Shown here: positions 547 through 20,082 of the stretch, one piece after another
Layout: each line of letters starts with the position of its first letter
How positions within the stretch are numbered: position 1 is the first letter of the stretch
IMG/VR virus record: IMGVR_UViG_3300031910_001335
Location: 1 to 50,989 of that record
Length of the DNA: 50,989 nucleotides
Strand: one strand, 5' to 3'
Source of the DNA: a virus
Lineage: Duplodnaviria; Caudoviricetes
The notes under the pieces: generated by a model
Database searches by the model: none
The model's input: only the letters and a program-made list of their open reading frames with translations
Told to the model about the DNA's origin: nothing
Program-made: the position numbers and the translations under genes

Positions 547-1074
547 TCACCTCCGCGCCCTCACGACGAAGCCCAGCGGCACGAAGCCGTAGTCGACTTC
601 AAGCAGCTCGTCGACGGTCCAGCCAGCGTCGCCAAGCAGACGCTCGAGCAGCTCCCTCGTTACGACAGTACGATGGTACTGGTATGGGTTGCTCGAGGAG
701 CCGTAGCGCGTCTCGCTCTCGGGCCGCTCGTCGCAGGGCACCGTGACGCAGAGCTTGTGGCTCACGCGATGAGCCTCCTCCAGCACGCTCGCAGCCTCGT
801 CTGGCGACAGGTGTTCGAGGATGTCGCCGAGCACGACGAGCTCCGCCGCGCCCTCGTCGAAGGGCCACTCTTCGATCGCAGCGTCGAAGAGCACGTCGAC
901 GTTGTTCGGCCTGCTCATCGCCTCGTCGTAGTCGACGACGTCGCAGTTGCGCACGCGATCGCCGTAGATCGCCTTGAGCATGGCCGGGTCCTCGTTGCAG
1001 CCGACGTTCAAGACCAGCCCGGTCGTCGACGCCACGGCGGCGCGCTGGTAGCCGAAGCGGTCGAACGCGCTCAT
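547..1074 (-). CDS. class I SAM-dependent methyltransferase
   Basis: ATG at 1074 overlaps the upstream TGA (ATGA); motifs VLNVGC, WPFDEGAAELVVLGDILEHL and VTVP typical of Methyltransf_11/23. Confidence 0.8.
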   Translation of the reverse strand: MSAFDRFGYQRAAVASTTGLVLNVGCNEDPAMLKAIYGDRVRNCDVVDYDEAMSRPNNVDVLFDAAIEEWPFDEGAAELVVLGDILEHLSPDEAASVLEEAHRVSHKLCVTVPCDERPESETRYGSSSNPYQYHRTVVTRELLERLLGDAGWTVDELLEVDYGFVPLGFVVRARR

Positions 1075-3416
1075 GCCCTCGCCATGTGCACCTGGGCGCT
1101 CGTGCTCACGAAGCGCCGCTCGCACATCGGCTTCCAGTAGTTGCCGTAGACGGCAGCCCAGGAGCGCGCCTCGGCCAGCCCTCGCCCGAGCACCGCTCGC
1201 TTCGAGCGCTCGCGGTCTCCCATCTCGACGACGTGCTCGAGCTTCTTCAGCCACAGCTTGCGGTACGTCTCGTTGTTGGGCCACCCGTCGACGAGGAGAT
1301 CGTCGCACGCCACGGTCTCGCAGAGCCCGGCGAGGCGCGACGTCACAGGGAACACGCCAGCAGCCTGCGCGTCCAGCGCGCTCATGCAGTACGTCTCCAT
1401 GAAGTACGTCGGGTACGCCCAGACGTCGACGTCGTACAGCGCAGCGGCCACCTGCGCCTGCGGCACTCGCCCGCGCCAGCGCACGCCGCCCTCCTCGCCG
1501 CCCACGCTCTCGACGAGCTCCTCGACGTAGTGCTTGAACGCGAGCAGCCGCTGAGCATAGCCGCTGCCGCTGTCCATTGCGACGATCTTGTCGATCGCCT
1601 CCCACCCGTAGAACACGTCGAGCGTCGCCTGCGGCCAGCGCTTGCGCACGTCGGGCCACATCTCGAGCAGCACGTCGACGCCGCGGTCGGGCGACGAGAG
1701 CCACGCCATCCGCGCGCCCTGCGTCGGGACGGCCCTCGGGAACAGGTGCAAGTCCATGCCGTTGGGCAGCGACTGGCAGCGACCGGCGGACAGCCCGTAG
1801 AGCGACTCGGTGTGGTGGGCGTGCCACCGCGTGAGGCACACGATCTCGTCGATGTTGCTCAGCCTGTCGCCGAAGAGCCCGCTGCCCGGCATCAGCGCGT
1901 CTCGGACGTTGACGTCGTGGAGCCACAGCACGCGGAGGCCGGCGTTGACCTCAGCGTCGAAGAGCTCTGGCGTCCGCGACGACACGACGACGTCGTGCCT
2001 CTCCATCGACAGGAAGTCCTCGCTGTCCCACCACTCGATGCCGAGCTCGTCGACGCCCTTGCAGGGACCCGGCGTGCCGTACACCTCGACGCGCCAACCG
2101 TCGAGAGCGAACTGCTCCGCCAACCGCATCACGCACTTCTCGGTGCCGCCCACGCCGTGGACGACCTCGAGCTCCGGGTGCCACGGCTCGAACAGCGGCT
2201 TGTTGAAGAACGCGATCGAACGCTCGCCCTGCGGCCTCGAGCGCCTACGCGCGTAGAGCAGCTCCATCGGCTTCCGCTCCACGACGGGCCTCGAGCGCTC
2301 CGCGTCACGGGCCAGCTCGACGCGGTCACGCTCCGCCATCAGCTCCGGCGACTTGCGGATAGCCAGCGCCTGGTCGATGTCCTGCAGCGCCTCGTCGTAG
2401 CGCCCGAGGTTGGCGCGCGCCTGAGCCCTCAGCGCGAGCGGAGTGTAGCGCGCCTCCATCGGCTCGATCACCTGCTGCGTCACGGGCATCGTCGTGCAGG
2501 CGAGGCACATCGACGCCCACTGCTCCGAGCGCGACCAGTCGAGCAGCTCCGCGCAGGACAGGGCGATGCCGTTGTACGAGTCGGGCCACGTGGGGAGCAG
2601 CTTCACGCCCTGCAGGTCCGTGTCGATCGCTCGTGCGTGGTCGCCGATCGAGCGGAAGCAGTCCGCCATCGTGTGGTTGCTTCTGTACGAGTCGTCGGGC
2701 TGGCTCTCCGTGACCACCATCTTGAACTGCTCAGCAGCACGGATGAACAGAGCCGTGCGCTTGGCTGCATCCGGCTCCTCCAGCGCCTCGGCGAAAATCT
2801 CCAGCGCGAAGAAGTAGCGGAAGCGCACGACGTCCGGGTAGTCTCGCATCGCCTTCGCCACGATGCGGCGGTTGCGGTCACGCCTCGGGCCCTTGAGGTC
2901 GGGGTCACGGTAGTGCTTCACCCATGCGCCCGTGGGACGCTCAGCCTGTGCGCCCGGCGTGTTCCAGCACACCTCGTGGATCGGGTACACCCACTTCATC
3001 CGCTGCCTCGTCGAGAACATCCGCTCCCGCCACTGCACGCTGACGACGGTGCCCGTCTCGTCAGTCCCGTAGTCGTAGCGGAACATCATGAACGTCGTCT
3101 CCGGGTGCTCGGCGAGGTCGAGCCCGCTCGGAGCGTAGAGCTCGTCGTCGTGATCGAGCCACAGCAGCCACTCGTGCTTGTCGCGTGGCACCATGGCGAA
3201 GCTCTGGTTGCGAGCCAGCGAGAAGTCGTCCTTCCACGCGAACTTCTCGTAGACGGTGGGCAGCCCAGCGTTGAGCATCCACCTCGGAGGCTTGCGACTA
3301 CGCCCGTTGTACGCGACGTAGAGCTTCGAGCAGTGCGGTGCAGCGGAGCTCACCATCCGCTGCCACTCGCCGCGTTCGACCGAGTCTCCGACTATGACCG
3401 CGAGGGCTACGTCCAA
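1071..3416 (-). CDS. multidomain glycosyltransferase: GT2 (SunS-like) + TPR + GT4 (GT-B)
   Basis: WKDDFSLARNQSF..WLLWLDHDDE..YPIHE (GT2/TPR family); helical TPR-like middle; GGTE, SSPDRG and YPTYFMETYCMSALDAQAAG (GT4). Start inferred at TTG 3416 just after the upstream stop. Confidence 0.85.
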   Translation of the reverse strand: MDVALAVIVGDSVERGEWQRMVSSAAPHCSKLYVAYNGRSRKPPRWMLNAGLPTVYEKFAWKDDFSLARNQSFAMVPRDKHEWLLWLDHDDELYAPSGLDLAEHPETTFMMFRYDYGTDETGTVVSVQWRERMFSTRQRMKWVYPIHEVCWNTPGAQAERPTGAWVKHYRDPDLKGPRRDRNRRIVAKAMRDYPDVVRFRYFFALEIFAEALEEPDAAKRTALFIRAAEQFKMVVTESQPDDSYRSNHTMADCFRSIGDHARAIDTDLQGVKLLPTWPDSYNGIALSCAELLDWSRSEQWASMCLACTTMPVTQQVIEPMEARYTPLALRAQARANLGRYDEALQDIDQALAIRKSPELMAERDRVELARDAERSRPVVERKPMELLYARRRSRPQGERSIAFFNKPLFEPWHPELEVVHGVGGTEKCVMRLAEQFALDGWRVEVYGTPGPCKGVDELGIEWWDSEDFLSMERHDVVVSSRTPELFDAEVNAGLRVLWLHDVNVRDALMPGSGLFGDRLSNIDEIVCLTRWHAHHTESLYGLSAGRCQSLPNGMDLHLFPRAVPTQGARMAWLSSPDRGVDVLLEMWPDVRKRWPQATLDVFYGWEAIDKIVAMDSGSGYAQRLLAFKHYVEELVESVGGEEGGVRWRGRVPQAQVAAALYDVDVWAYPTYFMETYCMSALDAQAAGVFPVTSRLAGLCETVACDDLLVDGWPNNETYRKLWLKKLEHVVEMGDRERSKRAVLGRGLAEARSWAAVYGNYWKPMCERRFVSTSAQVHMARA

Positions 3417-3421
3417 AAGCC

Positions 3422-4804
3422 CTACCGCCTTGGAGTTGTCGCGGACACCGCCTTCGACCAGGGACCGAGGCCGCCGTCGGCGTCGATGCCGCGGACTCGG
3501 AACCAGTACGTCGTGCGTGAGGACAGCCCTGCGACAGTGTAGTTCGTCTCGGACGAAGTGTAGCTCTTCGCGCTGCTGAAGTTGGAGTGAGAAGCCGACT
3601 CGACCTCGTACGTCGAGGCGCCGTCCACCGCCGACCACGACAACGAGATCGCCGTCCTCTGCTTCGCGGTGATGTTCACGGTGGGGGCCGTGAGCCCTGC
3701 CGGAGGCGTCGGAGGCGGCGGCGGTGGCGGAGTCGGCGGTGGGGGCGGCGTCGGGGGAGAGGGCGAAGATGCGGAAGACGCGTCGCCCTGCCAGTTCGGG
3801 TCGGCGACGACCGCTTGGTACGCGGCGAGCGATGCCGCGCTCGAGTCGATGCGCCAGTCGCACTCCTTGTTGAGGTTGAACCAGTCGACCTCGGTGATCC
3901 GCGGGAACGTGTTCGGTATCTCCGTCTCGTAGGCGCTCGTGATCCAGGCTGCCTTGTTGCCGCCCTGCTCGTTCGAAGCGGTCTCGCTGATCTGCACGGG
4001 CATGTTCGGGTCGAGCGACGTGACGATGTCGTACGAGGGCTTGAACACCTGCGTCCACGTCTGCCACGACTCGCCGGGGCTCGAGCCCCAGTTGTACCCG
4101 TCGATGCCGAGGACGTCGACGTAGCCGCTGCCGGGCCAGTACGACTTGATCGTGTTGGTAGGGCCGTTGTTCGGAGCCCACACCCACTGCACGTTCGTGA
4201 CGCCGGCGTCGTGGAAGATCTGCCACACGTGCTGCCACGCTGCGACGAACTGCGCTGGCGTGTTGTTGTTCACGTTGGCGCCCCACGCCGACCAGTCGCC
4301 GTTCATCTCCGCCGCGAAGCGGATCTGGAACGGCTTGCCATACGACTTGGCCTGTGCAGCGGCCGCCTTGAGGTACGCGTCGTGGCTGCCGTTGACGATG
4401 GTGGACAGCGCGTAAGCCGGTTGGTTCGTGTCGCTAGATGCGCCCGGGTCCCATGGCTCCCACACGATCTGAGGGAGCGCGCCCCTCGAGGTGATGCCGT
4501 CCATCTGCACCTGCGCCAGCAGGTCGATGGTCCAGTCGCGGAAGATCATCACGATCGCGGGTGCCCTGCCCACCTGCTTCGTGTACGCGTCGAGGCGCGC
4601 GAAGAAGTCCGTGTTCGAGTTCCAGGGAAGAGCGAGCCCGAGAGCCCTAGCCACAGTTGGCCTCCTGACGTAGACGCCTACGGCCACCATGCACACGCAC
4701 GCGAGCGCTACGAGGAGCACACGAAGCGTTCTGGGCAGCCACTCTTGGAACTCTAACAGGCTGCGCCAACCCTGCTGGGACGAGCCCTGGGACAGCGTTG
4801 GCAT
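3422..4804 (-). CDS. secreted GH26-family glycoside hydrolase + Pro-rich linker + fibronectin type III domain
   Basis: IRFAAEMNGDW, WVWAPN, YWPGSGYVDVLGIDGYNWG and QISET are GH26 motifs; PPTPPPPP linker; FN3 motifs (LSWSAV, YTVAGLSSRTTYWFRVRG). The real start may be GTG 4720, ahead of the signal peptide. Confidence 0.85.
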   Translation of the reverse strand: MPTLSQGSSQQGWRSLLEFQEWLPRTLRVLLVALACVCMVAVGVYVRRPTVARALGLALPWNSNTDFFARLDAYTKQVGRAPAIVMIFRDWTIDLLAQVQMDGITSRGALPQIVWEPWDPGASSDTNQPAYALSTIVNGSHDAYLKAAAAQAKSYGKPFQIRFAAEMNGDWSAWGANVNNNTPAQFVAAWQHVWQIFHDAGVTNVQWVWAPNNGPTNTIKSYWPGSGYVDVLGIDGYNWGSSPGESWQTWTQVFKPSYDIVTSLDPNMPVQISETASNEQGGNKAAWITSAYETEIPNTFPRITEVDWFNLNKECDWRIDSSAASLAAYQAVVADPNWQGDASSASSPSPPTPPPPPTPPPPPPPTPPAGLTAPTVNITAKQRTAISLSWSAVDGASTYEVESASHSNFSSAKSYTSSETNYTVAGLSSRTTYWFRVRGIDADGGLGPWSKAVSATTPRR

Positions 4805-10132: not shown

Positions 10133-10308
10133 TCGTCCTCCCTCGCCCTGCGGTTGATCGCGTCTCCCTTCGCCAACTGGTCGGCCATCGTGGCCGGATC
10201 ATGCACGTAGCCTCCCTTGTCGCCGCCGTACTTCGGCGCCTTCGCGTCGGGCATCTCGTATGGGATCACGAGCTGTGCTCCCTCGGCGATGATGTCAGAG
10301 CCGCTCAT
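10129..10308 (-). CDS. small hypothetical protein
   Basis: GTGA overlap downstream; start 10308 or 10344. Confidence 0.55.
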   Translation of the reverse strand: MSGSDIIAEGAQLVIPYEMPDAKAPKYGGDKGGYVHDPATMADQLAKGDAINRRAREDE

Positions 10309-13300
10309 GGGCTTTGTCCTTGAACTCTCGCCAGAGTCGCTCATCGTGCACGGTCTCCTCTCCAGTGGTCGAGTCGTAGCTGAAGATCCTCTTCGCGGGT
10401 CGGAACTTGCCCGCCTCGTCGACGCCCTGGTTGTTGTCGTGCACCTCGACGTCGACCGAGAGGCCCTGCTTGTGGATCCGGCTCACCATCTCCGGCACCG
10501 TGGCCGAGACGTCTCGGTGCACTGCCCGGAGGATCAACGACGGGATCATGCGGCGGTCCGCGATGTCCGTGGCGGTCTTGGCCCTGGCAGCTGCCCGCTT
10601 CTCAGCCTCGGCCGTGGGCACTGACACGTACACCGCCTTCGCGCTGTAGCCCTTGTCGAGGAACTGCTGGATGCGGCCGATCATCTCGTCGGGCGACGTG
10701 TTGCCCACGCCGTCGACGATCATGTCGAGCTTCCTCTCGAGAGCCTGCCGCTGCATCTCCTGGCTGATGTCCCACGCCTCGCGGTACACGACCGCGTTGG
10801 CGGTGGGGTCGTCGGCGTAGCGGGCCTGGAACTCCGGCAGCATCGCCTTGATGCGGTCCGGGTCGATCACGAGCGGCTCGCTGCCCTTGAAGTGCTCCGC
10901 CTTCGCCTGCTTCACGACGCCGCCCTTGCCAGCGCTGTAGCCGCCGCCGGAGAACAGCACCCGAGGGCTGGCGCTCGTGTGCAAGCCCTCGAGGAAGTGC
11001 TGGATGATCTCCTGGTGCAGCCGCTGCCTCTCTGCCGAGTACTGCCTCGTGCCGTCTTCCAGCGTCGTCGAGTGCGTCTCGGCCGTGTCGGGTTCCCCAG
11101 CCGCGATGCGAGCGTACTCTCCCAGCGTGTGCTGGTTGACGTGCCCTGCGGCGTTGAACTTCACCTCGGCAGTGTCGAGCGACTTCGTGTCGACGTGCGC
11201 CTCGGGCGTCACCACCCTGAGGTCCTCAGCGGGCTGGAACGACGTGACGGTGAACGAGCCGCGAGCGGCCGGCTTGATGATGGCGTCGAACTCGTCAGTG
11301 CTCGTGGCACCCACCCTCTTCAGCGCGTCGCCGAGGCTCTCGTCGTTGCCCATGATCAGCGGGTGGTCGAAGCCGGCGGCCACCGGCACCGCCGTGCCGT
11401 GGCCCTTCGCGATGCTCGGGTCGGTCGTGAGGAACACGACGCTCTTGCCCTGCATCCCCATGTGCTCGCTCTGGCCGCGGAGGCCAGTGGCCTCGATCGA
11501 CGAGATGTTCGACCGCGGCGTTCCGTGGTAGAGCACCGCTCCGTACGGGTGGCCCTCGAGGAACTTGGCGACGTTGTCCGGGTGCACGATCACGCGGCCG
11601 CGGTCGCTCTTGTTGCCGAGCTTGGCGAGGTCGTCTGCCAGCCTCAGGGCCGCGAGCTCGTGCACCTTCTGGTCGAACTCCCTCGAGCGCTCCTCGTACG
11701 TCTGCTGGCCGGGCGCGTACTCGAGCGGTCCGCCCGACATCAGGTCCGCCCTCGCCAACGCCCTCGAGTCCGCGAGCAGCGCCTTCACCTGCTCAGCAGA
11801 GAGCTCGTGCTGGTGGCCGCCGAAGCCGTTGGCGGCTCCGTCCGGGATGCCGAGCTTGTTGTACAGCGCGTTCGACGCGGTGGTGCTGTCGAACTTCAGG
11901 CCCTGGTCGTTCTCGGCGGCGTGCTTGAGGATCTCGCGGAACACGCTGAAGCCGCCGCCATGGATGCCCCCGACGCTGCCGCCCTTCACGTGAGTCCGCA
12001 TCACCTGGCCGCCGTAGCGCTCGTCGTGCGTGCTGTACGTCCCCACGCCGATGACTCGGCCCTGCCCGTCCCTCGCCACAGCCAAGTGCTCGGCGTAGCC
12101 CTCGTGAGCATTGAACAGCGCGTCGTCGGCGAGCTTCCAGCTCTCCATCGCGTGCTTGACCTTCTCGTCCTGCCACCACATGATCTCGTGAGAGAGCGAG
12201 CTCGGCGACTGCGACGGGTTGCGCTCGACCCTGTGCTCTCCGGTGCCCGGCAGCTCGGGTCCCGTTTGCAGCAGCCTCCCGAGCGGGTCCGCGAGGTAGC
12301 GCTGCACCTTCAGCTGCTCGAGCTCCGCATCGTGCTTGTGCTGGTACGTGACGAGCGGAGTCGCGCCGAGGTACTTCCAGCCGGTGCGCTCGCTGAGGCG
12401 GCCGCCCTTCATCCCGTCGCGATAGTAGAAGTGGGCGCGGTTGCTGTCGCGATCGATCACGGCGATGGCCAGCGCGGGCTTCACGCCGAGCTGCTTCGCG
12501 TGAGCCAGCTTCTCCTCGATCTCGTGCTTCTTCGGCGTGGCCTTGAACTCCGTCGAGTCGGTCGACACAGACTTCACCTCGAAGCCGTAGCCGTCGAAGC
12601 GGATGTCGAGCGGCGACTGCTCTCCCTTGCCGGGCGGGTGCAGCACCTCCGCGTCGGAACCGAGGAAGCGCTTGAACGCCGCCTCTCCCTCGCGGCCGAG
12701 TGCCGTGTTGGTGCCCGCAGCCTTGTCGGAGGAGTAGCCACCGCGGAGACCCTTCCCTCGACGTAAGCCCTTCGGCGGCGGCGGCTTCTGCCACGGCTTC
12801 TCGAGGTCCTTCGGCGTCACCTCTCCCCGCGTCCCCGGCCCGTACCTTCCCTCTCGCTTGGCACGCAGGTAGGCCTGGTACTCAGCCTCCTGCTCCGGCG
12901 AGATGTAGCCGGCGGTCTTCTTCGGCTTCGCGTGCTGCATCTCCTCGGCGCTGAGCTTGTGCTGCGTGCCGGCAGCGTAGACGGAGAGCGGGCGCATGCC
13001 CAGCTGCTCGAGGTAACGGTCCATCTCCGCGAGCCGTTCCTCGTACGGGCCCACGTTCGAGTGGATGCCCTGCAGGTGAGCCATCGCCGCGTCGCTCGCG
13101 TCAGCGTGCGAGAGCTTGTACTTCTTCTCGAGGCCCTCGACCGCGGGAGCGAGGAACATCTTGTGCATCTCGCGCACCTGAGCCTGGTACGAGTCCGAGT
13201 TCGGGCTGTGCAGCACGTCCTCGATGTGGTAGCCGCCGTCAGCGTGGTGCTGCCCCAGCAGCTTCGCCGTCGTCCACCTCGCGAGCGACTCGGTCATCGC

Positions 13301-14644
13301 CTCCTCGAGCATCCCCTGCTCGTTGCCGCGGTCGTACTCCGGCTTCACGTCCTCGATGCGAGCGCTCGGGCCCATCGCGAGGTGGTGGGACTCGTGCACC
13401 ACCGTGTGCAGCGCCCTGCGATGCGACTCGTCCCAGCGCCTGAACGCCGTCGAGTGCAGCGTGGCGAGGTCCTCGCCGACGTAGTCCTGGTGCAGGCCGA
13501 TCACGCCCGCCCAGTACGCGACGCCCCTCGCCTTCATCTTCAGGTCCTTGACCCTCACCTCGCCGATGAACGCGCTGCGGTGGCTGGGCACGCCGGCGTC
13601 AGCGACCACCGTGTGAACGAAGTCGACCCAGTCCTCGCCCTCGGCACCCTTCCCGTCGGCCAGCATCGAGCGTAGAGCCTCGCGAGACTGGGCGTAGTCG
13701 CTCGTCCTCGGCAGCTGGTTCGCCCTGGCCGGAAGCTGCCTCGACCGCTGCTGGAAGCCGTCATGCGCCTGCATCTCGTCGTAGCGAGCAGCGTCCATGT
13801 GGTCGAGGAAGCGAGCGGCGATCCGTCTGTCCTCCTCGTCCTGCGCAGCCTTCGCAGCGTCCCTCGTCTTCTTCTGCTCCCTGGCACGCTCGTGGTCTGC
13901 CTTGATGTAGTCCGCGTCCTTGTAGATGTGGCCGCGGCGCATCAGCTCGTTGCGCACGTCCGGGTGCAGCTTCGCGATCACGCGGTCGTCGAGCGAGCCC
14001 TTCTTCTCGGTCCACCCGGAGGCCTTGAGCCGGTTGATCAGCTCGGCTGCCTGCTCAGCGTTCAGCCCGGGCAGCGTCTGGTCGAGCCACGCCTGGGTGA
14101 TCCGCTTCGGGAACGCGTCAGCCGCAAGGGTGTCCGGAGGCGGCTCAGTGTTGCCGTCGTGCCCGTACAGCGACGTGAGGGCGGACACAGCGTCGTGCAC
14201 CTCTGCGTCCTTCTCGGTGGCGCTCTTCGCCTCAGCGCCGAGGTCCCGGCCAGCGGGAGCAGGCGTGACTCCACTCCCGCGGCCGGGAGCTCCGCTGGTG
14301 GGTCGCTGCGGAGCCTTGCCGACGTCGCCGAGCCGCTGTGCGACAGTGAAGTCGTCGACCTTCGCGCCCTCCTTGAACATCAGCACGCGGATGTTGCCCT
14401 GGCCCACGTTGCCCACGGCCATCGCGTCGGGCTTCGTCAGCTGCCGACGCTTCTCGATGAACTGCTTCGTGTTGCCGTCGGTGCCCGCCATGTCCTTGAG
14501 GCCCTGCAGCAGCTTCACTCCGGGAGGAGCGTTAGCGAACTTCCCGCTCTTCGGGTCATGCCACGGGTTCCCTGAGACGGTCGGGTGGTACACGCCAGCG
14601 AGCAGCAGCATGTCACCGCGCTCGGTGGCGATCAAGTCCAGCAC
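10295..14644 (-). CDS. large polyvalent head-associated protein (zincin peptidase, PD-(D/E)xK nuclease, GNAT-like, ART/KptA-like, zeta-toxin-like kinase)
   Basis: NPWHDPKSGKF N-terminal motif; VHESHH..EEAMTE; PLDIRFDGYGFEVKS; VLYHGT..IEATGL..VFLTTD; GGGYSAGKG..IDPDRIK..IVDG. Confidence 0.75.
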   Translation of the reverse strand: MLDLIATERGDMLLLAGVYHPTVSGNPWHDPKSGKFANAPPGVKLLQGLKDMAGTDGNTKQFIEKRRQLTKPDAMAVGNVGQGNIRVLMFKEGAKVDDFTVAQRLGDVGKAPQRPTSGAPGRGSGVTPAPAGRDLGAEAKSATEKDAEVHDAVSALTSLYGHDGNTEPPPDTLAADAFPKRITQAWLDQTLPGLNAEQAAELINRLKASGWTEKKGSLDDRVIAKLHPDVRNELMRRGHIYKDADYIKADHERAREQKKTRDAAKAAQDEEDRRIAARFLDHMDAARYDEMQAHDGFQQRSRQLPARANQLPRTSDYAQSREALRSMLADGKGAEGEDWVDFVHTVVADAGVPSHRSAFIGEVRVKDLKMKARGVAYWAGVIGLHQDYVGEDLATLHSTAFRRWDESHRRALHTVVHESHHLAMGPSARIEDVKPEYDRGNEQGMLEEAMTESLARWTTAKLLGQHHADGGYHIEDVLHSPNSDSYQAQVREMHKMFLAPAVEGLEKKYKLSHADASDAAMAHLQGIHSNVGPYEERLAEMDRYLEQLGMRPLSVYAAGTQHKLSAEEMQHAKPKKTAGYISPEQEAEYQAYLRAKREGRYGPGTRGEVTPKDLEKPWQKPPPPKGLRRGKGLRGGYSSDKAAGTNTALGREGEAAFKRFLGSDAEVLHPPGKGEQSPLDIRFDGYGFEVKSVSTDSTEFKATPKKHEIEEKLAHAKQLGVKPALAIAVIDRDSNRAHFYYRDGMKGGRLSERTGWKYLGATPLVTYQHKHDAELEQLKVQRYLADPLGRLLQTGPELPGTGEHRVERNPSQSPSSLSHEIMWWQDEKVKHAMESWKLADDALFNAHEGYAEHLAVARDGQGRVIGVGTYSTHDERYGGQVMRTHVKGGSVGGIHGGGFSVFREILKHAAENDQGLKFDSTTASNALYNKLGIPDGAANGFGGHQHELSAEQVKALLADSRALARADLMSGGPLEYAPGQQTYEERSREFDQKVHELAALRLADDLAKLGNKSDRGRVIVHPDNVAKFLEGHPYGAVLYHGTPRSNISSIEATGLRGQSEHMGMQGKSVVFLTTDPSIAKGHGTAVPVAAGFDHPLIMGNDESLGDALKRVGATSTDEFDAIIKPAARGSFTVTSFQPAEDLRVVTPEAHVDTKSLDTAEVKFNAAGHVNQHTLGEYARIAAGEPDTAETHSTTLEDGTRQYSAERQRLHQEIIQHFLEGLHTSASPRVLFSGGGYSAGKGGVVKQAKAEHFKGSEPLVIDPDRIKAMLPEFQARYADDPTANAVVYREAWDISQEMQRQALERKLDMIVDGVGNTSPDEMIGRIQQFLDKGYSAKAVYVSVPTAEAEKRAAARAKTATDIADRRMIPSLILRAVHRDVSATVPEMVSRIHKQGLSVDVEVHDNNQGVDEAGKFRPAKRIFSYDSTTGEETVHDERLWREFKDKAHERL

Positions 14645-14651
14645 GTGGCCT

Positions 14652-15008
14652 CTACCAGTTGGCGGGGAGCATGTCGGTGCGGCCGAGCTTGCGCGCCATC
14701 TTCTTGATGTGCGCCTTCGTCGCAGCCTTGTTTCCCGCACGACCGAACGCCTTGATCGCGTTCTTCAGGTCTCCGGCGCTGGCGATCGGGAAGCCGCCGT
14801 GAGGCATGGCAGCGCCCTTGGCCGCGAGCCTCTTCCTCTCGGCCACGCCCACGTCGCGGAGGCCGAGCTCGTGCGTCTCGAACTCCTGCAGCGTGAGCCG
14901 GCTGCCCGAGCCCGGGTCGTACGCGTGAAGCTCGTGCCGCTCGATCAGCCGCCGCGAGTGCGTGGAGACCTGAGGCCTCCGTTCACGCACGAGGTCGTAG
15001 TTCTTCAC
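14652..15008 (-). CDS. head-module protein (DUF6582-like)
   Basis: ERKRLAAKGAAMPHGGFPIASAGDLKNAIKAFGRA..HIKKMARKLG motif commonly seen near phage head genes; GTGA overlap. Confidence 0.65.
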   Translation of the reverse strand: MKNYDLVRERRPQVSTHSRRLIERHELHAYDPGSGSRLTLQEFETHELGLRDVGVAERKRLAAKGAAMPHGGFPIASAGDLKNAIKAFGRAGNKAATKAHIKKMARKLGRTDMLPANW

Positions 15009-17506: not shown

Positions 17507-20082
17507 GGCTCGATCCCCCTCCTGTACTCGTTGGGCTTGTGGCCGGAGGCGGCGTAGCGCGGGCCCGACGAGAACATCTCAGCGCGCGCCTGCTGCACAG
17601 CCCTGGGCGCCTCGTGGCGACCGCCGCTGGACGCCGGCATCGCGTGCCTCGTGCGGCCCTGCGGCCTGCCGCTCATCTCGATGCGGTGCACGTTAGCGAC
17701 GCAGTAGCGCCAGTTCGACATGCAGTTGTGAACCAGCACGCCGTCGGCGAAGAACTCGTGAGCTTCAGCGACCGTGAGGTCGTACACCGGCTGCAGCGGG
17801 CGAGACTCGCGCTCCACAGACATGACAACGAGTTCGACCGTTGTCGATGCGCTCGAACCTCTCACCACACTCGCACTCGAACTTCTTGGGCTCCCTCTTC
17901 TTGGCGTTCCTCGAAGCTCGTGCACTTCTAACAGCGCGGTCGCCTGTCCAGCCCCAGCCCGGGTGCGTCCTCTGGTGTTCCTCTTGCGAGACGCAACGAA
18001 GCCTGGAAGGGTCGACGGTCGCAGCGTCGTCGCTGAAGAGGTGGTGCACCTCGTGGTCCTCCGGTATCGGGCCGTTGTACCACTCCCAGACCTCCCTGTG
18101 GAGGTAGCGCCACTTCCCCGCGAACTGCCGGCGGTAGTAGCGTCCATCGTAGCACTTGAAGTTGATGCCACCGAACTCGACGACGGGAAAGTCGCCCGGC
18201 GGTCTCCCAATACGACGTCCCCTGGAGCCAACTCGTCCGCCCGGACCCAGCCCGTACTTTTGACGAAGATCGGGTGGTTGGGCGTGCACACCACCATCCT
18301 ACCACTTGTACATACCTTGACGAAGTCGTCGGCGAAGCCCGTGATGCCCGCAGCTTCGACGCGCCTGTAGCCCTCCCTGGTGAGCACTTCGTCCCCCTCG
18401 ACCACGCTCTCGATGGGCACGTCACCGCGCGCGGTGCTCACCATCGTCCCCGCGGGGTGGCAGTGGTCGAAGTCGTTGACCGGAATCTCCGGGTCGTCGA
18501 CGAGCGAAGCCCTCCGCCGCGGGTAGTGCCAAGCGTTGATCTCCTCGAGGAACATCTGGCAGCGGTCGACGTCGACGAAGAACTTGCCGTCGCTGACGAG
18601 CTCGGTGACGATCTTGATGTGCTCCTTCACATCACGCGTGGTGAGGAACACGGTCGAGAGGTCGATGCCCCGAGCAGCTCCCACGTGCTTCAGCTCCAGC
18701 CGAGCCGCCTTGCCCTGAGGATCGGCGAAGCGCCTCGTGACGCGGAAGTGCCCGCCCATGTGCTTCCGCCACAGAGCTTCGCGCTCGATGATCATCTCGG
18801 CCACCTTGCCGTTGCTCACCTCCGAGACGTAGATCTCATCGAAGCACACGATCGCGCCCTCCGGCAGCTTCACCGGCTCGTCGCCCTCGTGGTAGGGCTC
18901 GGCCTCCACCATGTACCGTAGCAGCTGGTACCAGTTCACAGCGTGCGGGTTGGTGCCACCGAAGTCGATCGACATGAAGATCGGCCCGTTGCCCATCTCC
19001 GGCTCCCAGCGTCGGACGCCGTTCGCCTCCTGCGAGAACATCGGCACGACGAGGCCCTCGGTCGACGGGCGGATGCACTCCTGCTGCGCCTCCCAGATCG
19101 GCCTGCTGTCTGCCTGGAACGTCTTGTGCACGTCCTGCAACGGGATCCACCCCTGCGAGCGAGCCAACCTGCCCTTGCACACGTCCGAGAAGCGTCGCAT
19201 CGTTCCGTCGTCCCAGTGGCCCTTCACGACCTTGTCGCACTTGCAGCGGTCCGCCTCGGAGAGGCCCGGGTGAGCGCGTTGGCAGTTGGGCACGCACTTC
19301 GCAGTCTCGAAGATGCACCAGCTGTAGAGCTTGTACGGCGGCTGAAGCTGCTGCCTCTCGGCCTCGACGCAGGAGTCGATCAGCTTCTGCATCATGCCGT
19401 GTTGCCTCTTTCGCGTGGACGTGATGATGTCCTGTGCAGCGATGCCATCCTTCGACTGGCTCATGTTGCGCGACTCGTCGAACACCTCCGGGTCGGCCAG
19501 CTCCACCTCGTCGAAGTGCACCTTCTGCGGGTGAGGGCCGTTGACCGCGTTGACCGTCCCGCCGAGGACCTCCAGCTTGGAGCTGTTCTTCCAGCGAGTC
19601 TCGAGCATGATCGAGCTCTCGATCTCCGGGTTGTCGTTCGGGTTGGAGACGCCGCCCTCGATAGCGAGCAGCTTCAGAACGTGCTGGTACGCCCTGCGCG
19701 CCTGAGCCTCGATCGCGCCGACCGACGCGGACTCGCAGCCGGGCTTGAACTTCGCGTTGAGCACGTGGAGGATCGCCGCGATGAACGTCTTGGCGCCGCC
19801 GCGGTTCGCCATGGCGATGGCGGCCAGCACGTCCTCGAAGTACACGTCCGCGAGGAAATCGAAGGGAGCGCAGTGGTCGGGGCACACCGCGACCCGCGGG
19901 ATGTCCGCTCGCAGGTGCGCCTTCACCCAAGTGTGCAGCTCGTCGCGGGTCATGGGACCGGCGAGCCGAGCCCTGCGCTCCACGGCCGTGGCTGTGCGGG
20001 CGAGCTCGACGAGCTCGTCGGTCTTCAGCCTCGACAGCTGAGCGACGAGTGCGTCGTAGCGCTCATCAGTCGACGTCGCCAG
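17503..20082 (-). CDS. terL: terminase large subunit containing an intein
   Basis: ANRGGAKT (Walker A), VHFDEVE (Walker B), SIDFGGTNPHA, FADPQG, NDFDH|CMSNWRY; start either GTG 19983 or CTG 20082. Confidence 0.9.
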   Translation of the reverse strand: MATSTDERYDALVAQLSRLKTDELVELARTATAVERRARLAGPMTRDELHTWVKAHLRADIPRVAVCPDHCAPFDFLADVYFEDVLAAIAMANRGGAKTFIAAILHVLNAKFKPGCESASVGAIEAQARRAYQHVLKLLAIEGGVSNPNDNPEIESSIMLETRWKNSSKLEVLGGTVNAVNGPHPQKVHFDEVELADPEVFDESRNMSQSKDGIAAQDIITSTRKRQHGMMQKLIDSCVEAERQQLQPPYKLYSWCIFETAKCVPNCQRAHPGLSEADRCKCDKVVKGHWDDGTMRRFSDVCKGRLARSQGWIPLQDVHKTFQADSRPIWEAQQECIRPSTEGLVVPMFSQEANGVRRWEPEMGNGPIFMSIDFGGTNPHAVNWYQLLRYMVEAEPYHEGDEPVKLPEGAIVCFDEIYVSEVSNGKVAEMIIEREALWRKHMGGHFRVTRRFADPQGKAARLELKHVGAARGIDLSTVFLTTRDVKEHIKIVTELVSDGKFFVDVDRCQMFLEEINAWHYPRRRASLVDDPEIPVNDFDHCHPAGTMVSTARGDVPIESVVEGDEVLTREGYRRVEAAGITGFADDFVKVCTSGRMVVCTPNHPIFVKSTGWVRADELAPGDVVLGDRRATFPSSSSVASTSSATMDATTAGSSRGSGATSTGRSGSGTTARYRRTTRCTTSSATTLRPSTLPGFVASRKRNTRGRTRAGAGQATALLEVHELRGTPRRGSPRSSSASVVRGSSASTTVELVVMSVERESRPLQPVYDLTVAEAHEFFADGVLVHNCMSNWRYCVANVHRIEMSGRPQGRTRHAMPASSGGRHEAPRAVQQARAEMFSSGPRYAASGHKPNEYRRGIEP
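17725..18462 (-). mobile_element. intein (246 aa) in the TerL nuclease domain
   Basis: N-terminal CHPAGTMVST..PIESVVEGDEVLT; block B CTPNHPIFV; C-terminal VYDLTVAEAHEFFADGVLVHN followed by Cys+1. Confidence 0.92.
17765..18289 (-). CDS. HNH homing endonuclease nested out-of-frame within the intein
   Basis: YLHREVWEWYNGPIPEDHEVHH..LRCVSQEEHQRTH (HNH_3-like) plus C-terminal CECG..CHVC Zn ribbon; -1 frame relative to the intein. Confidence 0.8.
   Translation of the reverse strand: MHAQPPDLRQKYGLGPGGRVGSRGRRIGRPPGDFPVVEFGGINFKCYDGRYYRRQFAGKWRYLHREVWEWYNGPIPEDHEVHHLFSDDAATVDPSRLRCVSQEEHQRTHPGWGWTGDRAVRSARASRNAKKREPKKFECECGERFERIDNGRTRCHVCGARVSPAAAGVRPHGR

What the first reader, a model, noticed from the sequence alone, without database searches (positions are those of the whole stretch)
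17725..18462. Terminase intein whose homing endonuclease is encoded in an overlapping reading frame
Seen: the intein has intact splicing blocks (C1, TPNH, HN|C). Where an endonuclease normally sits, the intein frame reads as Ser/Thr/Arg/Gly low-complexity sequence (SSSSVASTSSATMDATTAGSS...). The -1 frame on the same strand (17765-18289) is open for 174 codons, lies wholly inside the intein, and encodes an HNH_3-like nuclease (LHREVWEWYNGPIPEDHEVHH..EEHQRTH) plus a CxC..CxxC ribbon. Both frames are stop-free. Established: canonical inteins carry their endonuclease in-frame. Inference: this is a dual-coding mobile element in which splicing and homing functions are separate polypeptides from the same DNA. 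That would allow independent nuclease expression, and annotation would miss it as a mini-intein with a junk linker. The insertion splits the DH|C nuclease motif of TerL, so splicing should be essential.
Basis: partly seen in the sequence, partly recalled or inferred. Interest (0 to 1): 0.9.

Follow-up and report, generated by a model that had tools for sequence, protein, structure and literature searches.

The report
Terminase intein hiding out-of-frame HNH nuclease
An intein (a protein insert that likely splices itself out) in a soil phage's DNA-packaging gene also encodes, in a second reading frame of the same DNA, an HNH-type nuclease that likely spreads the insert; the layout is real and common in phages, but the general kind was already reported in 2025-26 with other nucleases.

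Summary
On the minus strand, a 246-aa intein (18462-17725) interrupts terL. A 174-codon HNH_3 ORF (18289-17765) lies wholly inside it in frame +2 (= -1).

It is not a sequencing error: four other assemblies are identical. In 119 distinct related inteins, all 97 that carry this HNH have it in frame +2. One divergent intein missed by that count has it in +1. Across 18 pairs, dN/dS over the HNH core is 0.18 in the nuclease frame and 1.35 in the intein frame. The intein frame stays stop-free in 84 of 84 elements, against about 4.6 stops expected. Relatives show homing signatures, decay stages and a split form (Lactobacillus phage CL2).

This copy is atypical: shortest in the set, no ATG start, and Arg in place of the HNH Asn. 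The closest relative also cannot have that Asn.

Out-of-frame intein nucleases are in print (Gosselin 2025: endonuclease VII-like; Phillips 2026: LAGLIDADG in +2). I found no paper on this HNH family. The scan noted the same layout before on at least eight other genomes. Verdict: new variant of a known kind. Splicing, translation and cleavage are untested.

The parts
18463..19983 (-). terL N-extein (507 aa), ending in NDFDH of the C-terminal nuclease motif
   Evidence: PHROG terminase large subunit hits phrog_10250 and phrog_2; intein-free homologues at 50-67% identity, L014-L019
17725..18462 (-). Intein, 246 aa, in frame with terL: Cys1, TPNH 60-63 (18285-18274), VYDLTV 226-231 (17787-17770), His-Asn end
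   Evidence: PF14890 45 bits against cut-off 35.8; motifs located
17765..18289 (-). Nested HNH_3 nuclease ORF in frame +2, 174 aa from GTG; His64, His82-His83, Arg96 (Asn in relatives), His105, His109; Cys139, 141, 155, 158
   Evidence: PF13392 35 bits against cut-off 24.8; PHROG HNH hits; AlphaFold core residues 41-110 at block pLDDT 82-93; best structural match I-HmuI, Z 7.7, 77 aligned, rmsd 4.6
18287..18311 (-). Candidate start 1: GTG formed across the Val-Cys codons just before TPNH, with a predicted ribosome-binding site upstream
   Evidence: anti-SD pairing -6.6 kcal/mol; same position as an ATG in L132; a start codon is possible at this position in P0005
18209..18233 (-). Candidate start 2: ATT after the intein GDVV motif, with a predicted ribosome-binding site upstream
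   Evidence: anti-SD pairing -6.5 kcal/mol; aligns with the ATG of MGRP in L053 and L075
17503..17724 (-). terL C-extein (73 aa), starting Cys-Met-Ser-Asn; its stop overlaps the portal start
   Evidence: translation; matches the continuation of intein-free homologues L014, L015, L018
15005..17506 (-). Portal protein fused to a MuF-like domain (downstream neighbour, context only)
   Evidence: PF06074 above cut-off, PF04233 just below

Best explanation
This is a dual-coding intein: one frame encodes terminase plus an intein with intact splicing motifs, and frame +2 of the same DNA encodes an I-HmuI-like HNH nuclease that is likely translated on its own and likely drives homing into intein-free terL alleles. 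Shown: both frames are intact, the layout is conserved in relatives, and purifying selection acts on the intein frame at the splicing ends and on the nuclease frame in the middle. Inferred: (1) TerL is made as a precursor, the intein excises with its junk middle loop, and the C-terminal nuclease motif is rejoined. (2) Ribosomes initiate internally on the terL message, most likely at GTG 18289, with ATT 18211 as the alternative. (3) The nuclease nicks or cuts near the empty site in a co-infecting phage, and repair copies the intein across. (4) The element arose when a free-standing HNH gene entered a mini-intein; frame +2 dominates because that overlap needs the fewest stop codons removed.
For: Pfam matches in both frames. 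GC-rich codon position moves from position 3 (0.83-0.92 in extein and splicing ends) to position 2 (0.88, 0.93) over intein nt 264-450, which is position 3 of the nuclease frame. Of 153 intein N-block hits, 147 were complete and 119 distinct; 97 of the 119 (window copy included) hold the HNH, 97 of 97 in +2. Independently, 73 of 150 protein representatives have a +2 shadow compatible with the HNH motif, 0 of 150 in +1 and 0 of 150 in frame. Pooled dN/dS over 18 non-overlapping pairs: HNH core 0.18 (+2) against 1.35 (intein frame); N-splicing part 0.20 against 1.67; C-splicing part 0.08 against 2.19. The intein frame is open in 84 of 84 non-redundant elements, where synonymous recoding predicts 4.6 stops on average; frame +1 is open in 0 of 84. 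A standard start exists in 84 of 84 (77 ATG); the best start has SD pairing of -4 kcal/mol or better in 74%, the first start in 60%, controls in 22% of 420. Homing signs: 3 of 11 close pairs have inteins 99% identical in upstream flanks only 77-93% identical. Empty sites exist: L014 matches 15 of 15 and 12 of 15 nt around the junction; one contig in run X23 joins 17722 to 18463 without the intein. Fourteen free-standing relatives carry 1-10 stops in the intein-equivalent frame and 8-26 in the other.
Against: This copy is the shortest of 84 (246 aa, median 314) and has 4 Cys after the core against a median of 8. It has Arg where 95 of 97 have the Asn before the conserved Leu, and Val where 95 of 97 have the earlier Asn; loss of that Asn cost 60% of nicking activity in GVE2 HNH (PMC5304195, passages). 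It has no ATG start. No variation exists among the identical copies to measure selection on this copy itself. The one empty allele seen reads Val, not Cys, at +1, and rests on one 174-nt contig of depth 3.4 in 1 of 8 runs laid. The structural match is middling (Foldseek E 4.9e-3; Z 7.7). The +2 rule has an exception, L117 in +1. The sample is biased, since both search profiles were built from five dual-coding inteins and only the best 80 of 441 and of 548 confirmed hits were kept.
Confidence: 0.63

Rival explanations
1. The family is dual-coding, but this copy's nuclease is a weakened or dead relic on its way to a mini-intein; only splicing still matters.
For: Shortest element, half the usual Cys, Asn replaced by Arg, no ATG, and ATT where two relatives have ATG. 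Decay stages exist in the family: L133, L169 and L171 keep only the Cys-rich tail, and 15 of 119 are mini-inteins; L149 is a mini form with an upstream flank 99% identical to full L125.
Against: All five conserved His and the frame are intact. The closest relative, P0005 (41% identity, same terminase family), can only encode Arg or Gly at the Asn position, is compatible with the same TVDP segment, and cannot have ATG at the later start. L067 has the TVDP segment too. These traits therefore look old rather than freshly broken.
Confidence: 0.24
2. The nuclease is made by -1 ribosomal frameshifting as a terminase-intein-HNH fusion, not from its own start.
For: A -1 slip would enter the right frame; frame +2 is open from intein nt 165.
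Against: Slippery heptamers occur in 14 of 84 elements against 11 of 84 control windows, and not in this copy. Starts with SD pairing are enriched.
Confidence: 0.05
3. The HNH has been domesticated as a packaging helper for the terminase and is kept for the phage's benefit.
For: HNH proteins that assist terminases are known (stated in PMC11855218, section 4.2). A free-standing relative sits next to the small terminase gene in phage BP10.
Against: Close terminases lack it altogether (L014-L019). It is lost repeatedly by in-frame deletion. It is present in CL2 but absent from terL alleles 97-100% identical in related phages.
Confidence: 0.05
4. Two compensating indel errors put an in-frame HNH out of frame, or the ORF is a chance GC-rich shadow.
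For: Long stop-free +2 shadows are common in this window.
Against: Four other assemblies are 100% identical over 4.6-5.7 kb. Seven runs hold all sampled words (flagged as possible sources). No indel row appeared in 8 runs laid. Cultured phages TJE1, Highwayman and phiCDHM19 show the same frame. The nested ORF overlaps the conserved TPNH and VYDLTV blocks, which a pair of frameshifts could not give.
Confidence: 0.02

Closest known systems
Non-canonical actinobacteriophage inteins with an endonuclease VII-like nuclease in reading frame 3 (Gosselin, Arsenault, Gogarten, bioRxiv 10.1101/2025.01.02.630785; sections 6, 8, 15 and passages read)
   Same: Contiguous intein, same-strand nested nuclease in frame 3 (= +2), terminase among the host genes, origin proposed as invasion by a free-standing nuclease.
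   Different: Their out-of-frame nuclease is endonuclease VII-like and their HNH inteins are in frame; they call these layouts rare. Here it is HNH_3/I-HmuI-like with Cys ribbons and is the majority form of its intein group. TJE1 is not in their main text; supplements were not visible.
Cyanobacterial dnaX intein with a +2 ORF LAGLIDADG nuclease (Phillips, DeSimone, Gogarten, bioRxiv 10.64898/2026.09.14.751524; abstract, introduction, section 17 and passages read)
   Same: +2 overlapping nuclease, disordered intein middle, putative Shine-Dalgarno site, frame-dependent dN/dS, coexistence of full, mini and empty alleles.
   Different: Bacterial chromosome gene and LAGLIDADG; 'HNH' and 'terminase' occur 0 times in its text.
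[quoted passage not shown] 2025, PMC11855218; abstract, discussion and part of results read)
   Same: HNH hidden in another frame of a host gene, host frame stop-free, GTG start proposed.
   Different: No splicing domain and a dispensable host gene; here a full intein would remove the junk from an essential enzyme.
Fractured genes: split intein halves around a free-standing nuclease (Dassa et al. 2009, PMC2677866; passages read)
   Same: Nuclease gene between intein blocks, 3' end overlapping the C-terminal part; terminase among hosts. Lactobacillus phage CL2 shows this form with the present HNH family.
   Different: The window's intein is contiguous; their nucleases were GIY-YIG or Vsr-like.
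I-HmuI (PDB 1u3e)
   Same: Only solved-structure sequence hit (E 0.0016) and top fold match.
   Different: About 20% identity; I-HmuI is intron-encoded (recalled) and the match covers only the core, not the Cys-rich tail.

Membership tests
Class 1 intein | Intein splicing profile above cut-off | tested here: met
   PF14890 45 bits against 35.8
Class 1 intein | Cys/Ser at position 1, TxxH block, terminal His-Asn, Cys/Ser/Thr at +1 (criteria recalled) | tested here: met
   Cys1, T60-H63, His245-Asn246, Cys+1
Class 1 intein | Precise in-frame insertion relative to intein-free homologues | tested here: met
   L014, L015, L018 read DFDH-CM without interruption
Class 1 intein | Self-splicing activity | not testable with these tools
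   needs a splicing assay
HNH_3 (I-HmuI-like) nuclease | PF13392 above cut-off | tested here: met
   35 bits against 24.8
HNH_3 (I-HmuI-like) nuclease | Catalytic and metal-binding His positions | tested here: met
   His82, His83, His105 invariant in 97 of 97; His109 in 90 of 97
HNH_3 (I-HmuI-like) nuclease | Central Asn of the H-N-H motif | tested here: not met
   Arg96 where 95 of 97 have Asn; so this copy is filed as a variant, not a canonical member
HNH_3 (I-HmuI-like) nuclease | beta-beta-alpha-metal fold | tested here: inconclusive
   top hit I-HmuI, Z 7.7, rmsd 4.6, 77 aligned, next Z 4.6; Foldseek E 4.9e-3; below the Z 8 caution line
HNH_3 (I-HmuI-like) nuclease | DNA nicking or cleavage | not testable with these tools
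   needs purified protein
Inteins with an out-of-frame homing nuclease (Gosselin 2025; Phillips 2026) | Nuclease ORF nested between the splicing blocks, same strand, frame +2, intein frame open | tested here: met
Inteins with an out-of-frame homing nuclease (Gosselin 2025; Phillips 2026) | Frame-dependent selection and signs of mobility | tested here: met
   met at family level only; not measurable for this copy
Endonuclease VII-like or LAGLIDADG out-of-frame subtypes | Nuclease is endonuclease VII-like or LAGLIDADG | tested here: not met
   Pfam at E up to 0.1 gives only HNH_3 and DUF5874 for the nested ORF
Fractured gene (split intein) | Stop codon between the intein halves | tested here: not met
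   intein frame is continuous in the window; met in CL2
ShiLan-type insertion | No splicing domain in the host frame | tested here: not met
   intein profile and motifs present

The most novel reading that the evidence does not exclude
Dual coding is the stable, majority state of a large group of phage terminase inteins, not a rare step towards in-frame fusion. The intein's own splicing motifs supply the nested gene's start and stop signals. One HNH family spans the whole series (free-standing, nested +2, nested +1, split intein, decayed, mini), and this window's lineage is an active nuclease that has replaced the motif's Asn.
Probability: 0.4. Interest if true: 0.65.

Novelty: new variant of a known kind. 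Interest (0 to 1): 0.45.

Why it matters
Terminase inteins of this group look like mini-inteins with junk linkers, and gene callers miss the nuclease (four of four annotated records opened with the nested form). Surveys therefore undercount mobile inteins. The family gives a testable series for how inteins gain nucleases: free-standing genes, nested genes in two frames, a split form with near-identical empty relatives (CL2 against CL1 and iLp1308), decay stages and mini-inteins. Several members are in cultured phages, so homing by a separately translated nuclease can be tested directly. I saw no such test in the papers read.

Tried and rejected
Word-indexed protein search with the HNH found nothing at E 0.001 (43 candidates). 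The metagenome scan found no relative among 75 pattern hits. A scan of bacterial genomes could not be run with either alignment, so prophage spread is unmeasured. No RNA holder was listed among 24 runs, which says nothing about expression. No second empty-allele joint appeared in four more runs. In X13 a contig begins exactly at 18463 at depth 11.2 against 3.6 across the junction, but no joining contig was listed, so it is only a hint. A second joint in X19 (17647-18843, side 20) was set aside as unreliable. No unusual RNA structure surrounds either candidate start (z 0.99 and 1.56). No slippery-site signal. The third same-strand frame (18425-17928) and the antisense ORF (17774-18370) have no Pfam match. 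The TVDP pattern occurs in 5 viral contigs only: four copies of this element and L067. TVDP compatibility alone is weak (16 of 150 proteins by chance); it counts in P0005 only because it falls in register with the other motifs. The HNH tree (99 rows, 144 columns, quick method) left the window copy on a long unresolved branch, so the number of origins is open; L117 was mislabelled free-standing in it. Literature searches for this HNH layout found only the papers named; subscription journals and bioRxiv supplements were not visible, and Gosselin's supplementary table could list members. The Brucella-phage lead in note e1-6014328 was not found in print and was not checked in sequence.

Full report
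What is there. The window is a 51 kb, 66% GC virus record whose sequence is held by soil metagenome runs. On the minus strand, terL (19983-17503) is followed by a portal-MuF gene. A 246-aa intein (18462-17725) sits at NDFDH|CMSNWRY, with Cys1, TPNH, VYDLTV and His-Asn, and scores above the Pfam cut-off. Its middle is 74% S/T/R/G/A. In frame +2, a 174-codon ORF (18289-17765) matches HNH_3 above cut-off and several PHROG HNH families. Its AlphaFold core is confident, and its best sequence and fold match among solved structures is I-HmuI, at middling strength. The GC-rich codon position switches to the nuclease frame over intein nt 264-450.

Chance and error. Open length alone proves little here: 9 stop-free +2 stretches of this length lie in 7 long genes, this ORF included, and recoding leaves this intein frame open 18.5% of the time. 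Error is excluded by four identical assemblies, a contig that spans the whole intein without a difference (X1, a possible source), and cultured phages with the same layout: TJE1, Highwayman and phiCDHM19.

The family. Two viral scans returned 160 loci, the best 80 of 441 and of 548 confirmed hits. With four GenBank records and a copy of this element, they gave 153 intein N-block hits, 147 complete, 119 distinct; 6 partial ones were dropped. Ninety-seven carry the HNH, all in +2; none of the 119 has a stop in the intein frame, and 1 of 97 has one in the HNH core. Of the 22 without it, 15 are mini-inteins, 3 keep only the Cys-rich tail, and 4 carry another out-of-frame nuclease. One divergent intein that my profile missed, L117, has the same HNH in +1. 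Of the 80 loci found by the HNH alone, 66 show intein sequence and 14 are free-standing. By a rough pattern rule, 72 of 84 non-redundant elements sit in or next to the C-terminal nuclease motif of terminase. The sample is enriched for this group by construction.

Selection. Over 18 non-overlapping pairs, dN/dS in the HNH core is 0.18 in frame +2 and 1.35 in the intein frame; at the splicing ends it is 0.20 and 0.08 in the intein frame. The intein frame is also held open: 84 of 84 have no stop where recoding predicts 4.6, and frame +1 is open in none. So the middle must be read through as part of the terminase precursor, but its amino acids matter only in the nuclease frame.

Expression signals. 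All 84 have a standard start before the core, 77 an ATG; SD pairing is enriched (74% best start, 60% first start, 22% controls; the first figure picks the best of several and is inflated). The stop often comes from the intein's own Tyr-Asp or Tyr-Asn codons (21 and 12 of 84); here it comes from Ala-Glu, 40 nt before the end. This copy has two candidates: GTG 18289 (-6.6 kcal/mol, in register with an ATG in L132) and ATT 18211 (-6.5, in register with the ATG of L053 and L075). No frameshift signal was found. Translation is inferred, not shown.

Mobility. Three of 11 close pairs have 99% identical inteins in upstream flanks of 77-93%. Close terminases are empty, three of them with Cys at +1. One contig in run X23 joins the two exteins of this very phage without the intein, with one other difference in 172 aligned bases, and reads Val at +1. 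That is not a clean deletion. It would be either a target whose +1 codon must be co-converted or a resistant allele. It is one low-depth contig in 1 of 8 runs laid. Lactobacillus phage CL2 carries the same HNH between split intein halves, with 8 stops in the C-half frame across the nuclease gene, while related phages with 97-100% identical flanks have nothing there.

Why +2. The 14 free-standing relatives have 1-10 stops in the frame that would be the intein's and 8-26 in the other. Entering a mini-intein in +2 thus needs only a few changes. This is inference, and L117 and L128 show that +1 also occurs.

This copy. It is the shortest of 84, has 4 tail Cys against a median of 8, and lacks both conserved Asn residues. 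In GVE2 HNH that Asn contributes to activity without being essential (60% loss; PMC5304195 passages). The closest relative, P0005, known only as protein, cannot encode Asn there either, which favours an old lineage trait over fresh decay. I put an active nuclease at about 0.63 and a relic at 0.24.

What is known. Gosselin et al. 2025 report same-strand frame-3 endonuclease VII-like nucleases and antisense ones in actinophage inteins, with HNH only in frame. Phillips et al. 2026 report a +2 LAGLIDADG in the dnaX intein with the same selection pattern. Arsenault et al. 2025 report an out-of-frame HNH without an intein, and Dassa et al. 2009 the split form. My searches found no paper on an out-of-frame HNH in terminase inteins; supplements and subscription journals were not visible. 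The scan's notes list eight earlier cases on other genomes; I reached my reading before opening them and use them only as leads.

Verdict. Real, conserved and under selection in both frames. It works like the published out-of-frame intein nucleases, with a different nuclease family and a much wider spread. New variant of a known kind; interest 0.45.

Noticed in passing
L209:1670-2774 (Lactobacillus phage CL2, KR905067): terL ends in an intein N-half with a stop at 1954; an HNH gene follows (1967-2590); an unannotated intein C-half plus terminase tail overlaps its 3' end (candidate GTG 2538). This looks like a naturally split intein. It is absent from near-identical terL of CL1, iLp1308 and others.
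   Followed up: partly
L117:1548-2363: Divergent terminase intein with the same HNH family in frame +1, the only such case seen.
   Followed up: partly
L128:148-1029: Another terminase intein carries a DUF559 (Vsr-like) nuclease in frame +1 on the same strand; the paper read reports that type only antisense.
   Followed up: partly
L138:1801-2535: Intein with an HNH_3 nuclease on the antisense strand; representative P0041 looks similar.
   Followed up: partly
L146:735-1898 and L173:1160-2323: Inteins with an antisense Cys-rich DUF559/Vsr-like nuclease, matching a published type.
   Followed up: partly
L133, L169, L171; L149 against L125: Decay series: in-frame deletions remove the HNH core but keep the Cys-rich tail; a 125-aa mini-intein sits at the same site as a 299-aa full one with a 99% identical upstream flank.
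   Followed up: partly
window 17722-18463 (run X23, record 27): Intein-free allele with Val in place of Cys at +1; possibly a resistant allele.
   Followed up: partly
L185, L187, L200, L080, L128: Terminase genes with two inteins in tandem, in L185 and L187 both with a nested HNH.
   Followed up: no
L208:1300-2640 (phiCD119, AY855346): Same element as in phiCDHM19 but with broken frames in the record, annotated as a short terminase plus a hypothetical protein; error or decay not decided.
   Followed up: no
window 10295-14740 (-): 1481-aa protein two genes downstream of the portal, with a C-terminal Zeta_toxin domain (PF06414, 84.5 bits) that also matches a minor head protein family; looks like a multi-domain head-associated protein.
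   Followed up: no
window 1071-4286 (-): 1071-aa protein with weak TPR and group 1 glycosyltransferase matches.
   Followed up: no
P0005: Closest relative's terminase has a second, longer intein upstream whose in-frame middle looked LAGLIDADG-like by eye; Pfam gave no such match.
   Followed up: no
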